From the NCBI RefSeq assembly GCF_030013205.1, contig NZ_CP122648.1: a DNA stretch of 64,000 nucleotides. One strand, written 5' to 3'. The position numbers are program-made. Numbering within the stretch: the stretch's first letter is position 1; the number at the start of each line of letters is the position of its first letter. Source of the stretch: Escherichia coli (lineage in GTDB: Bacteria; Pseudomonadota; Gammaproteobacteria; Enterobacterales; Enterobacteriaceae). This document shows, in pieces, positions 6,001-7,794 of this stretch.

Positions 6001-7794
6001 TTCGCTCCGTTACGACTTTCCGCGCTACTCTCACCGCGCAGCAGCGCCGGAAGCTCGACGTTTTCCAGCGCGTTAAGGGTAGGAATTAACATAAATGACT
6101 GAAAAACAAAGCCGACGTGCTTCGCGCGCAACTTTGCCCGCGCTTCTTCGTCCATATTATGTAGCGGTTGTCCCACCAGACTCACTTCGCCACTGCTGCC
6201 GTCATCCAGCCCGGCGAGGATCGCCAGCAAGGTTGACTTACCCGATCCCGACTCGCCCACCAGTGCGATGGTCTCGCCACGTTTGACAACCAGCTCAACT
6301 CCGGTGAGGATGGAGAGTTCATGCTCCCCCTGACCGACGGACTTCTTAAGATGATGAACTTCAACAATGTTTTCCGCTGGCATTTGCCCTTCCTGTTCCT
6401 GGTCCTGTTAACCTTCCGTGCCGCCGCAGCGGACACGTTATTGATTCTGGGTGATAGCCTGAGCGCCGGGTATCGAATGTCTGCCAGCGCGGCCTGGCCT
6501 GCCTTGTTGAATGATAAGTGGCAGAGTAAAACGTCGGTAGTCAATGCCAGCATCAGCGGCGACACCTCGCAACAAGGGCTGGCGCGCCTTCCGGCTCTGC
6601 TGAAACAGCATCAGCCGCGCTGGGTGCTGGTAGAACTGGGCGGCAATGACGGTTTGCGTGGTTTTCAGCCACAGCAAACCGAGCAAACGCTGCGCCAGAT
6701 TTTGCAGGATGTCAAAGCCGCCAACGCTGAACCATTGTTAATGCAAATACGTCTGCCTGCAAACTATGGTCGCCGTTATAATGAAGCCTTTAGCGCCATT
6801 TACCCCAAACTCGCCAAAGAGTTTGATGTTCCGCTGCTGCCCTTTTTTATGGAAGAGGTCTACCTCAAGCCACAATGGATGCAGGATGACGGTATTCATC
6901 CCAACCGCGACGCCCAGCCGTTTATTGCCGACTGGATGGCGAAGCAGTTGCAGCCTTTAGTAAATCATGACTCATAAAGCAACGGAGATCCTGACAGGTA
7001 AAGTTATGCAAAAATCGGTCTTAATTACCGGATGTTCCAGTGGAATTGGCCTGGAAAGCGCGCTCGAATTAAAACGCCAGGGTTTTCATGTGCTGGCAGG
7101 TTGCCGGAAACCGGATGATGTTGAGCGCATGAACAGCATGGGATTTACCGGCGTGTTGATCGATCTGGATTCGCCAGAAAGTGTTGATCGCGCAGCCGAC
7201 GAAGTGATCGCCCTGACCGATAATTGTCTGTATGGGATCTTTAACAATGCCGGATTCGGCATGTATGGCCCCCTTTCCACCATCAGCCGTGCGCAGATGG
7301 AACAGCAGTTTTCCGCCAACTTTTTCGGCGCACACCAGCTCACCATGCGCCTGTTACCCGCGATGTTACCGCACGGTGAAGGGCGTATTGTGATGACCTC
7401 ATCGGTGATGGGATTAATCTCCACGCCGGGTCGCGGCGCTTACGCAGCCAGTAAATATGCGCTGGAGGCGTGGTCGGATGCGCTGCGCATGGAGCTGCGC
7501 CACAGCGGAATTAAAGTTAGCCTGATCGAACCCGGTCCCATTCGTACTCGCTTCACCGACAACGTCAACCAGACGCAAAGTGATAAACCAGTCGAAAATC
7601 CTGGCATCGCCGCCCGCTTTACGTTGGGACCGGAAGCGGTGGTCGACAAAGTGCGCCATGCTTTTATTAGCGAGAAGCCGAAGATGCGCTATCCGGTAAC
7701 ACTGGTGACCTGGGCAGTAATGGTGCTTAAGCGCCTGCTGCCGGGGCGCGTGATGGACAAAATATTGCAGGGGTGAGTTGAAGTGCGCGCTTAA

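What the first reader, a model, noticed from the sequence alone, without database searches (positions are those of the whole stretch)
6321..6383. Divergent tesA and ybbA coding regions overlap at their 5' ends
ybbA (minus strand, start codon at 6383..6381) and tesA (plus strand, start at 6351 or 6321) overlap by at least 33 bp on opposite strands, so their promoters must lie inside each other's coding sequence. This is probably conserved in E. coli rather than novel.
Basis: seen in the sequence. Interest (0 to 1): 0.2.

Follow-up and report, generated by a model that had tools for sequence, protein, structure and literature searches.

The report
tesA and ybbA overlap head-to-head
Two E. coli genes on opposite strands, whose proteins work together as a membrane lipid-hydrolase complex, really do overlap by 30-33 bases at their starts with each promoter inside the other gene, but this layout is already annotated and published.

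Summary
ybbA (minus strand, 5697-6383) and tesA (plus strand, from ATG 6351 or 6354) overlap head-to-head by 33 or 30 bp, with codons exactly opposite each other.

Both starts hold up:
- The ybbA ATG is the only start codon available upstream of the ABC fold.
- The upstream ATG at 6321 and the TTG at 6384 are not conserved.

Published start-site mapping (Kim 2012) puts the tesA transcription start at window 6319. That is 7 nt after a conserved TTGACA-17-GAGGAT promoter inside ybbA codons 25-34. Two weak ybbA starts lie at 6538 and 6770, inside tesA. Published p19 capture data (Huang 2020) show RNase III-cut double-stranded RNA across tesA.

ybbA codons 1-34 show frozen synonymous sites (72% against 10% elsewhere).

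Across 78 genomes the pair is divergent with almost no spacer. It often shares a CATG, and the enterobacterial overlap looks like a later derivative of that layout.

The overlap is already annotated. It is mentioned in the 2025 YbbAP-TesA paper and listed as a divergent excludon. Whether it regulates anything is unproven. Low interest.

The parts
5697..6383 (-). ybbA coding sequence (228 aa, ABC ATPase of the YbbAP type VII transporter)
   Evidence: ORF list. RefSeq annotation. Essentially identical to PDB 9GE6 chain B over all 228 residues, with one substitution. Pfam ABC_tran.
6351..6977 (+). tesA coding sequence (208 aa from ATG 6351; 207 aa from ATG 6354, as in RefSeq); periplasmic SGNH/GDSL hydrolase with a 26-aa signal peptide
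   Evidence: MMNF or MNF starts in homologues.
6351..6383 (.). Head-to-head CDS overlap: tesA codons 1-11 (MMNFNNVFRWH) are the exact antisense of ybbA codons 11-1 (MPAENIVEVHH). The tesA ATGATG is the antisense of the His10-His11 codons CATCAT.
   Evidence: Sequence. Alignment of 17 Enterobacterales. Codon tables.
6283..6288 (+). tesA promoter -35 hexamer TTGACA, inside ybbA codons 32-34
   Evidence: Best plus-strand PWM hit in 6000-6800, score 10.6. ybbA third positions here are invariant in 12 of 12 genera. Lies within the 50 nt upstream of the mapped TSS.
6306..6311 (+). tesA promoter -10 hexamer GAGGAT (AAGGAT in most genera), inside ybbA codons 25-26
   Evidence: 17-bp spacer. The TSS is 7 nt downstream.
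6319..6350 (+). tesA 5'UTR (32 nt). The TSS at 6319 is MG1655 519021 with 45 reads, and lies in ybbA codon 22.
   Evidence: Kim et al. 2012 Table S1. The 51-mer matches window 6269-6319 exactly.
6387..6394 (-). ybbA Shine-Dalgarno region (minus strand AGGAAGGG, about 7 nt before the ATG), inside tesA codons 13-15
   Evidence: Sequence. Anti-SD duplex energy -7.0 kcal/mol.
6538..6538 (-). Proximal ybbA TSS (MG1655 518802, 2 reads, 155-nt 5'UTR), inside tesA codon 63. Upstream lies TTGCGA-17-TGGCAT with a TG extension.
   Evidence: Weak PWM hit 6572->6544.
6770..6770 (-). Distal ybbA TSS (MG1655 518570, 2 reads, 387-nt 5'UTR), inside tesA codon 140
6386..6845 (.). Zone of sense/antisense RNA pairing. 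RNase III-cut 21/22-bp duplexes captured by p19 map to 6386-6407, 6452-6479, 6635-6656 and 6824-6845.
   Evidence: Huang et al. 2020 Table S3, mapped to the window.
6282..6392 (.). Zone of excess DNA conservation. It covers the tesA promoter, 5'UTR and first codons, and ybbA codons 1-34 with its SD.
6321..6323 (+). Upstream in-frame ATG (would give 218 aa and a 63-bp overlap). Judged not to be used.
   Evidence: Strong SD (-8.4) but 2 nt from the TSS, so the SD is not transcribed. Leu in two genera, and cut off by a stop codon in Rahnella.
6384..6386 (+). TTG (Leu12), the start used by 194/197-aa annotations that avoid the overlap. Judged not to be the start.
   Evidence: Not a start codon in 6 of 17 Enterobacterales. 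Poor SD. 194/197-aa annotations exist.
3286..5700 (-). ybbP (permease), overlapping the ybbA stop by 4 bp (context)
6967..7776 (+). ybbO, overlapping the tesA 3' end by 11 bp on the same strand (context)

Best explanation
This is a genuine, conserved head-to-head overlap of two real genes.

Shown:
- ybbA starts at the ATG at 6383.
- tesA is transcribed from a sigma-70 promoter embedded in ybbA codons 25-34 (TTGACA 6283-6288, 17 bp, GAGGAT 6306-6311), with its start site at 6319.
- ybbA-strand RNA starts inside tesA, at 6538, at 6770 and further upstream.
- The two mRNAs are therefore antisense to each other over at least 220 nt, and they form double-stranded RNA that RNase III cuts in vivo.

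Strongly inferred: tesA starts at ATG 6351 or 6354. The first 11 codons of the TesA signal peptide are then read from the antisense strand of the first 11 ybbA codons.

Inferred:
- The layout is a derived form of an ancient arrangement in which the two genes sit back to back with no spacer, often sharing a CATG. In Enterobacterales the tesA start moved about 10 codons into ybbA, using ATGs supplied by two His CAT codons.
- The most likely consequence is tight physical linkage and shared control of two partners of one complex, with some transcriptional interference, rather than an on/off switch.
For: Starts:
- The ybbA ATG is the only start between the upstream stop and the first beta-strand in all 17 Enterobacterales.
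- LolD, MacB and MJ0796 structures align from YbbA residue 5-10.
- At least one tesA ATG at 6351/6354 is kept in 17 of 17 Enterobacterales. His10 is CAT in 12 of 12 genera, and codon 11 is CAT or CGT.
- A basic residue at TesA position 9-10 is kept even where YbbA residues 2-5 change.

Promoters:
- PWM best hit scores 10.6.
- The mapped tesA TSS is at window 6319 with 45 reads. The ybbA TSSs are at 6538 and 6770.
- 72% of aa-invariant degenerate ybbA codons 1-34 have no third-position change, against 10% in codons 35-228 (p = 1.4e-7).

RNA (column headers; duplexes):
- tesA antisense is 48.7 RPM against 29.7 sense. ybbA antisense is 0.5 RPM.
- p19-captured dsRNA is 182-2396 RPM on tesA, against 11-86 on ybbA.
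- Six RNase III duplexes map inside tesA.

Ancestry:
- The pair is divergent in 78 of 80 loci.
- An in-phase CATG occurs in 37 of 60 non-enteric loci.
- The best promoter hit sits at the same offset, +26 from the Walker A Gly codon, in 37 of 79 loci across several orders.

Partnership: the YbbAP-TesA complex is described in PMC12646458.
Against: - No direct mapping of the TesA precursor N-terminus or of initiating ribosomes could be retrieved.
- The ATGs at 6351/6354 have a weak Shine-Dalgarno match (-3.2 kcal/mol).
- Conservation of the overlap is confounded, because both frames code there.
- The two ybbA TSSs rest on 2 reads each. They do not explain the duplex at 6824-6845, so the main origin of the antisense RNA is not located.
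- No conserved sigma-70 site for ybbA was found.
- In rnc mutants, tesA and ybbA sense RNA levels barely change. A regulatory effect of the RNA pairing is therefore not shown.
Confidence: 0.85

Rival explanations
1. There is no coding overlap. tesA starts at TTG 6384 (Leu12), directly abutting the ybbA ATG, and MMNFNNVFRWH is untranslated leader whose conservation only reflects ybbA.
For: Some public annotations use this start. K. pneumoniae MGH78578 tesA is 594 nt, and 194/197-aa forms begin MPFLFL or MAFLFL. The MMNF ATGs have a weak SD. The mapped TSS at 6319 is compatible with either start.
Against: The codon at 6384-6386 is TGG, CTC, TTT or TTA in 6 of 17 Enterobacterales, while an ATG at 6351/6354 is universal. 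In Rahnella a stop codon sits just before MM, leaving MMNF as the only start upstream of the hydrophobic core. A signal peptide starting at Leu12 would have no basic n-region. The basic residue at TesA position 9-10 is kept where the opposite YbbA residues vary. His10 is always CAT, never CAC.
Confidence: 0.07
2. The overlap is 63 bp. tesA starts at ATG 6321, giving a 218-aa precursor with a 36-aa signal peptide.
For: This ATG has the best Shine-Dalgarno match of all candidates (-8.4 kcal/mol, GGAG 6312-6315) and is present in many genera. 218-aa annotations exist.
Against: The mapped TSS at 6319 is 2 nt before this ATG, so its SD is not in the main mRNA. The codon is Leu in Citrobacter FP75 and RIT691 and GTG in one MAG. 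In Rahnella a stop codon lies between this position and MMNF. The ATG is simply the antisense of ybbA His21 CAT.
Confidence: 0.04
3. The overlap is a working excludon. Antisense pairing and head-on transcription make tesA and ybbAP expression mutually exclusive or set their ratio, with RNase III as the effector.
For: tesA-ybbA is listed among the 16 divergent excludons of MG1655. There is abundant p19-captured dsRNA and antisense RNA over tesA. The TSSs face each other, at 6319 rightward and 6538/6770 leftward. The layout is conserved across orders.
Against: TesA and YbbAP form one complex (PMC12646458), so opposite expression is not expected. In two rnc mutants tesA sense RNA is 27.2 and 27.4 RPM against 29.7 in wild type, and ybbA falls slightly rather than rising. 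No condition with reciprocal expression was found.
Confidence: 0.2

Closest known systems
[quoted passage not shown]
   Same: Same genes, same overlap, same conclusion that the transcripts overlap.
   Different: Those sources do not discuss start-codon choice, the synonymous-site footprint of the embedded tesA promoter, or the distribution of the layout beyond E. coli and P. aeruginosa.
Divergent operons of E. coli that overlap at their 5' ends and give RNase III-cut dsRNA (Conway et al. 2014; Huang et al. 2020, e.g. rsd-nudC)
   Same: Neighbouring genes on opposite strands, each promoter beyond the other's start, and p19-captured dsRNA enriched in the 5' overlap.
   Different: According to Huang et al., in some of those pairs the dsRNA is confined to the 5' untranslated regions, while in others it reaches the 5' coding ends. 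Here the coding sequences themselves overlap and the intergenic distance is negative.
Listeria-type excludons (as described in PMC12288877 and PMC7373196)
   Same: Overlapping transcription of adjacent opposite-strand genes, with RNase III involved.
   Different: Classical excludons link genes with opposing functions and show reciprocal expression. Here the products are partners of one complex and reciprocity is not shown.
Same-strand 4-bp ATGA overlaps used for translational coupling (for example ybbA-ybbP at 5697-5700 in this window)
   Same: Coding overlap between functionally linked neighbours, and genome compaction.
   Different: In those overlaps the genes are on the same strand, the overlap is stop-to-start, and there is one mRNA. 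The tesA/ybbA overlap is start-to-start on opposite strands, so no translational coupling is possible.

Membership tests
Head-to-head (divergent) overlapping protein-coding gene pair | Two genes on opposite strands whose 5' coding ends share nucleotides | tested here: met
   ybbA runs to 6383 on the minus strand. tesA starts at 6351 or 6354 on the plus strand.
Head-to-head (divergent) overlapping protein-coding gene pair | Both genes encode real proteins | tested here: met
   YbbA matches PDB 9GE6. Pfam finds ABC_tran and GDSL lipase domains. The YbbAP-TesA complex is published.
Head-to-head (divergent) overlapping protein-coding gene pair | Both start codons are the ones actually used | tested here: inconclusive
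   There is strong comparative and TSS support. No N-terminal proteomics or initiation profiling could be retrieved for tesA.
Divergent excludon | Transcripts of the two neighbouring genes overlap | tested here: met
   Published TSSs lie at window 6319 (plus strand) and at 6538 and 6770 (minus strand). The pair is listed by ExcludonFinder.
Divergent excludon | The overlap forms dsRNA processed by RNase III | tested here: met
   Six p19-captured 21/22-bp duplexes map to 6386-6845. tesA dsRNA is 182-2396 RPM.
Divergent excludon | Mutually exclusive (reciprocal) expression of the two genes | tested here: inconclusive
   Only one dataset was seen. Sense RNA of both genes is little changed in rnc-14 and rnc-38, and no reciprocal condition is known. 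The products act as one complex, which argues against reciprocity.
Sigma-70 promoter embedded in a coding sequence (tesA promoter inside ybbA) | -35 and -10 hexamers at 17 +/- 1 bp, with a mapped TSS 6-8 nt downstream | tested here: met
   TTGACA-17-GAGGAT spans 6283-6311, and the TSS is at 6319.
Sigma-70 promoter embedded in a coding sequence (tesA promoter inside ybbA) | Selection on the promoter beyond what the host protein requires | tested here: met
   Third positions of ybbA codons 24, 25, 28, 29 and 32-34 are invariant in 12 genera. Leu26 uses only CTC or CTT.
SGNH/GDSL hydrolase (TesA) | GDS(L) catalytic block and family domain | tested here: met
   Pfam PF13472 at 2.1e-29 and PF00657 at 2.1e-27. 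G34, D35, S36, G70, N99, D180 and H183 are invariant in alignment A1.
Type VII (MacB-like) ABC transporter ATPase (YbbA) | ABC ATPase domain with Walker A, closest to LolD and MacB | tested here: met
   PF00005 at 7.5e-34. PDB hits are 9GE6 YbbA, then LolD and MacB at about 1e-55 to 1e-52.

The most novel reading that the evidence does not exclude
The entanglement itself may be under selection. Three features persist across several orders of Gammaproteobacteria: a tesA promoter fixed at the same ybbA codons, start codons interlocked as CATG or overlapping, and mutual antisense transcripts. Together they could act as a device that ties TesA and YbbAP expression together, or sets their ratio, and prevents the two genes from being separated. 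The enterobacterial TesA signal-peptide n-region would then be a small case of new coding sequence born on the antisense strand of ybbA.
Probability: 0.15. Interest if true: 0.45.

Novelty: already known. Interest (0 to 1): 0.18.

Why it matters
The main value is for annotation and engineering.
- Public records call three different tesA starts (218, 207/208 and 194/197 aa). The evidence here favours MMNF or MNF.
- Anyone deleting or recoding the 5' end of ybbA will hit the tesA promoter, 5'UTR and signal peptide, and the reverse also applies. This matters because tesA is widely engineered, and because YbbAP-TesA has just been described as a complex.
- The locus is a clean natural example of a promoter, a 5'UTR and two reading frames sharing about 100 bp, with a measurable footprint on synonymous sites.
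- It does not open a new question by itself.

Tried and rejected
- **Simple sigma-70 scan.** It found nothing in 5900-6900, because it requires 4 of 6 matches in the -10 hexamer. A weight-matrix scan then found the promoter that the published TSS confirms.
- **Conserved sigma-70 promoter for ybbA.** The search failed. The best minus-strand hit (TTGACA-17-CAGCGT, 6715->6687) is not conserved and matches no mapped TSS.
- **A sigma-54 reading of TGGCATTTGCC at 6378-6388.** Considered and rejected by eye, because the GG-GC spacing is wrong.
- **Rfam on 5600-7100.** No match at E <= 1.
- **Literature look-ups that gave nothing.** ExcludonFinder supplements, Conway 2014 supplements, Thomason 2015 (not held), Weaver 2019 and Meydan 2019 supplements, Salmonella riboproteogenomics, and Klebsiella TSS rows in Kim 2012.
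- **Shimada 2014.** It concerns the ybbP-rhsD spacer, not this junction.
- **Rejected starts.** ATG 6321 and TTG 6384 were considered as tesA starts and rejected (see rival explanations).

Full report
**What is in the sequence.** The window is E. coli. The stretch 6150-6550 matches 5417 of 5426 complete E. coli genomes at 95% identity or more.
- On the minus strand an ORF runs from the ATG at 6383-6381 to 5697 (228 aa). This ATG is the first start codon after the upstream in-frame stop.
- On the plus strand an ORF is open from 6321 to 6977, with in-frame ATGs at 6321, 6351 and 6354.
- RefSeq annotates ybbA to 6383 and tesA from 6354, a 30-bp overlap. MG1655 coordinates in a published table (tesA 518363-518989, ybbA 518957-519643) correspond to the 6351 start and a 33-bp overlap.
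- The two frames are exactly antiparallel. tesA codons 1-11 (MMNFNNVFRWH) lie opposite ybbA codons 11-1 (MPAENIVEVHH), and the tesA ATGATG is the antisense of His10-His11 CATCAT.

**Are the genes and their starts real?**
- YbbA matches the chain used for the YbbAP-TesA cryo-EM structures (9GE6-9GE8) over all 228 residues. The only difference is residue 219, Met in the window and Val in the deposited sequence.
- LolD, MacB and MJ0796 align from YbbA residue 5-10, so the ABC fold begins almost at the N-terminus.
- Pfam finds an ABC_tran domain in YbbA and GDSL lipase domains in TesA.

I fetched 80 genomic loci from named species with a TesA alignment. I measured each locus with anchors that do not depend on start calls: the first base of the YbbA Walker A Gly codon and of the TesA GDS Gly codon.
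- In all 17 Enterobacterales aligned, the ybbA ATG is the only start codon between the upstream stop and the first beta-strand.
[quoted passage not shown] Only the second is present in Superficieibacter, Enterobacter Bisph1 and Mangrovibacter, and only the first in Photorhabdus.
- The ATG at 6321 has the best Shine-Dalgarno match. However, it is Leu in two genera and GTG in one, and in Rahnella a stop codon immediately precedes MMNF.
- The TTG at 6384, used by 194/197-aa annotations that avoid the overlap, is TGG, CTC, TTT or TTA in six of the 17.
- A basic residue at TesA position 9-10 is kept even where the opposite YbbA residues 2-5 change.
- I could not retrieve initiation profiling or N-terminal proteomics for tesA. 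The tesA start is therefore strongly inferred, not shown.

**Promoters.**
- A weight-matrix scan gives TTGACA (6283-6288), 17 bp, GAGGAT (6306-6311) as the best plus-strand site in 6000-6800. Its score is 10.6, and only 17 sites reach 10 in the 128 kb of both strands of the window.
- Across 12 Enterobacteriaceae genera, third positions of ybbA codons 32-34, 28-29, 24-25 and 1-12 are invariant or nearly so, while codons 35-75 vary freely.
- In the 10 of those genera that have no indels in tesA, 72% of aa-invariant degenerate ybbA codons 1-34 show no third-position change, against 10% in codons 35-228 (Mann-Whitney p = 1.4e-7).
- Kim et al. 2012 (PMC3415461, Table S1; headers checked) map a tesA TSS at MG1655 519021 with 45 reads and a 32-nt 5'UTR. 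Its 51-nt sequence matches window 6269-6319 exactly, so the TSS is 6319, 7 nt after the predicted -10.
- The tesA promoter and TSS therefore lie in ybbA codons 22-34. The Shine-Dalgarno sequence of ATG 6321 is outside the mRNA.
- The same table gives two ybbA TSSs with 2 reads each, at window 6538 and 6770, inside tesA codons 63 and 140.
- I found no conserved sigma-70 site for ybbA.

**RNA pairing.** In Huang et al. 2020 (PMC7373196; column headers):

| Gene | Sense RNA, WT (RPM) | Antisense RNA, WT (RPM) | p19-captured dsRNA (RPM) |
|---|---|---|---|
| tesA | 29.7 | 48.7 | 182-2396 |
| ybbA | 21.7 | 0.5 | 11-86 |
| ybbO | 32.8 | 1.3 | 9-25 |

- Neighbouring genes have antisense of at most 2.7 RPM.
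- Six RNase III-cut duplexes map to the window at 6386-6407, 6452-6479, 6635-6656 and 6824-6845.
- The last duplex lies upstream of both mapped ybbA TSSs, so some ybbA-strand RNA starts beyond 6845.
- In two rnc mutants, tesA sense RNA is unchanged and ybbA falls slightly. That gives no support for RNase III-dependent control of steady-state levels.

**Evolutionary context.** The pair is divergent in 78 of 80 loci.

| Lineage | Anchor spacing (bp) | Result |
|---|---|---|
| 12 Enterobacteriaceae lineages | 193 | 30/33-bp overlap |
| Rahnella, Photorhabdus, Providencia, Acerihabitans | 196 | 30/33-bp overlap |
| Pectobacterium | 241 (48-bp insertion inside the overlap) | 75-78-bp overlap |
| Vibrionaceae and relatives | 194-198 | 2-bp CATG overlap |
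| Pseudomonas | 215 | 10-bp gap with the better-SD ATG (MRVWF...); CATG also present |
| Halomonas, Marinobacter | 260-312 | Halomonas shares CATG; Marinobacter has a gap |

- All intact Enterobacterales loci overlap by at least 30 bp.
- Outside that order, 37 of 60 loci have an in-phase CATG in which ATG starts tesA and CAT is the ybbA start. These span 13 named genera and three unnamed MAG lineages. They include two Betaproteobacteria and all five Halomonas, whose spacings differ only by multiples of three.
- In Pseudomonas an ATG four codons downstream has the better Shine-Dalgarno match and leaves a 10-bp gap.
- A promoter-like site sits at the same offset from the Walker A codon in 37 of 79 loci. 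It reads TTGACA-17-[AG]AGGAT in Alteromonas, Aliiglaciecola, Bowmanella, Shewanella and Pseudoalteromonas, with close variants in Aeromonas and Vibrio. It is absent in Pseudomonas and Halomonas.
- Part of this reflects conserved residues in YbbA (Ile-Leu, Val-Lys).
- My inference is that the near-zero spacer is ancient. The enterobacterial overlap would have arisen when the tesA frame shifted (spacing 1 rather than 2 modulo 3) and initiation moved to ATGs supplied by two His codons of ybbA.

**How it most likely works.**
- Shown: two real genes, a promoter and 5'UTR of one inside the other, facing TSSs, and dsRNA in vivo.
- Inferred: RNA polymerases from the strong tesA promoter and the weak ybbA promoters meet head-on between 6319 and 6538 or 6770, so some interference is expected.
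- TesA and YbbAP form one complex (PMC12646458), and rnc mutants show little change. I therefore favour linkage and shared control over an on/off excludon.

**Comparison with what is known, and verdict.**
- The overlap is in RefSeq annotation.
- ExcludonFinder lists tesA-ybbA among 16 divergent excludons.
- The TSSs and dsRNA are in published supplements.
- What this analysis adds is the choice among three annotated tesA starts, the synonymous-site footprint of the embedded promoter, and the wide distribution of the zero-spacer layout.

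Noticed in passing
L019, L021, L023, L024, L026-L028, L032-L036, L039-L042, L044, L048, L051, L054, L057-L060, L064, L066, L067, L069, L070, L073, L075-L081 (junction about 2400-2500 in each locus): In 37 of 60 non-enterobacterial loci, the tesA-like and ybbA-like genes share an in-phase CATG. 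The two divergent start codons overlap by the central AT. This holds even where the N-terminal regions differ in length by up to about 110 bp, always in multiples of three within Halomonas.
   Followed up: partly
L013 (Pectobacterium betavasculorum), about 2407-2648: A 48-bp insertion lies inside the overlap. It lengthens both N-termini at once (YbbA MFAKTSPASATPSKTAHVENILEV...; TesA MMNFKNVFYVRSFAWRSTRWAGLRKH...) and gives an overlap of about 75-78 bp.
   Followed up: no
window 6824-6845 and upstream: A p19-captured RNase III duplex lies upstream of both mapped ybbA TSSs, and antisense RNA over tesA (48.7 RPM) exceeds both tesA sense RNA and ybbA sense RNA. An unmapped antisense start therefore exists beyond 6845, possibly in the tesA 3' end or in ybbO. 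Much of that RNA may not continue into ybbA.
   Followed up: partly
L018 (Candidatus Pantoea persica), about 2110-2530: The ybbA homologue is broken into short fragments while tesA is intact. This looks like pseudogenisation in a reduced genome.
   Followed up: no
proteins P0002, P0003, P0038, P0039, P0121 and many distant representatives of 230-280 aa: Gene callers often extend TesA far upstream, to as much as 402 aa. The frame antisense to ybbA is free of stop codons, so these extended proteins are probably annotation artefacts.
   Followed up: partly
window 5697-5700 and 6967-6977: Both flanking junctions also overlap on the same strand. The ybbA stop and ybbP start overlap by 4 bp, and the tesA 3' end and ybbO start overlap by 11 bp. 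The four genes ybbP, ybbA, tesA and ybbO therefore have no intergenic DNA at all.
   Followed up: no
window 6538-6588 (minus strand) and ybbA codon 219: This strain differs from K-12 at two bases in the 51 nt ending at the proximal ybbA TSS, one of them next to the -10-like element (GGCATTGAC against GGCATTAAC). YbbA residue 219 is Met here and Val in the deposited 9GE6 sequence.
   Followed up: no
L001 1-468 (E. coli SK1144), downstream of ybbP: In the best-matching genome the gene after ybbP is a type VI secretion tssD gene. The K-12 tables list rhsD at that position, so the flank is strain-variable.
   Followed up: no
L071, L072, L055 (Shewanella): The only ATG or GTG available for tesA upstream of the hydrophobic core lies 39-49 codons before the GDS motif. 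That implies independent overlaps of 20-35 bp and unusually long signal-peptide n-regions.
   Followed up: no
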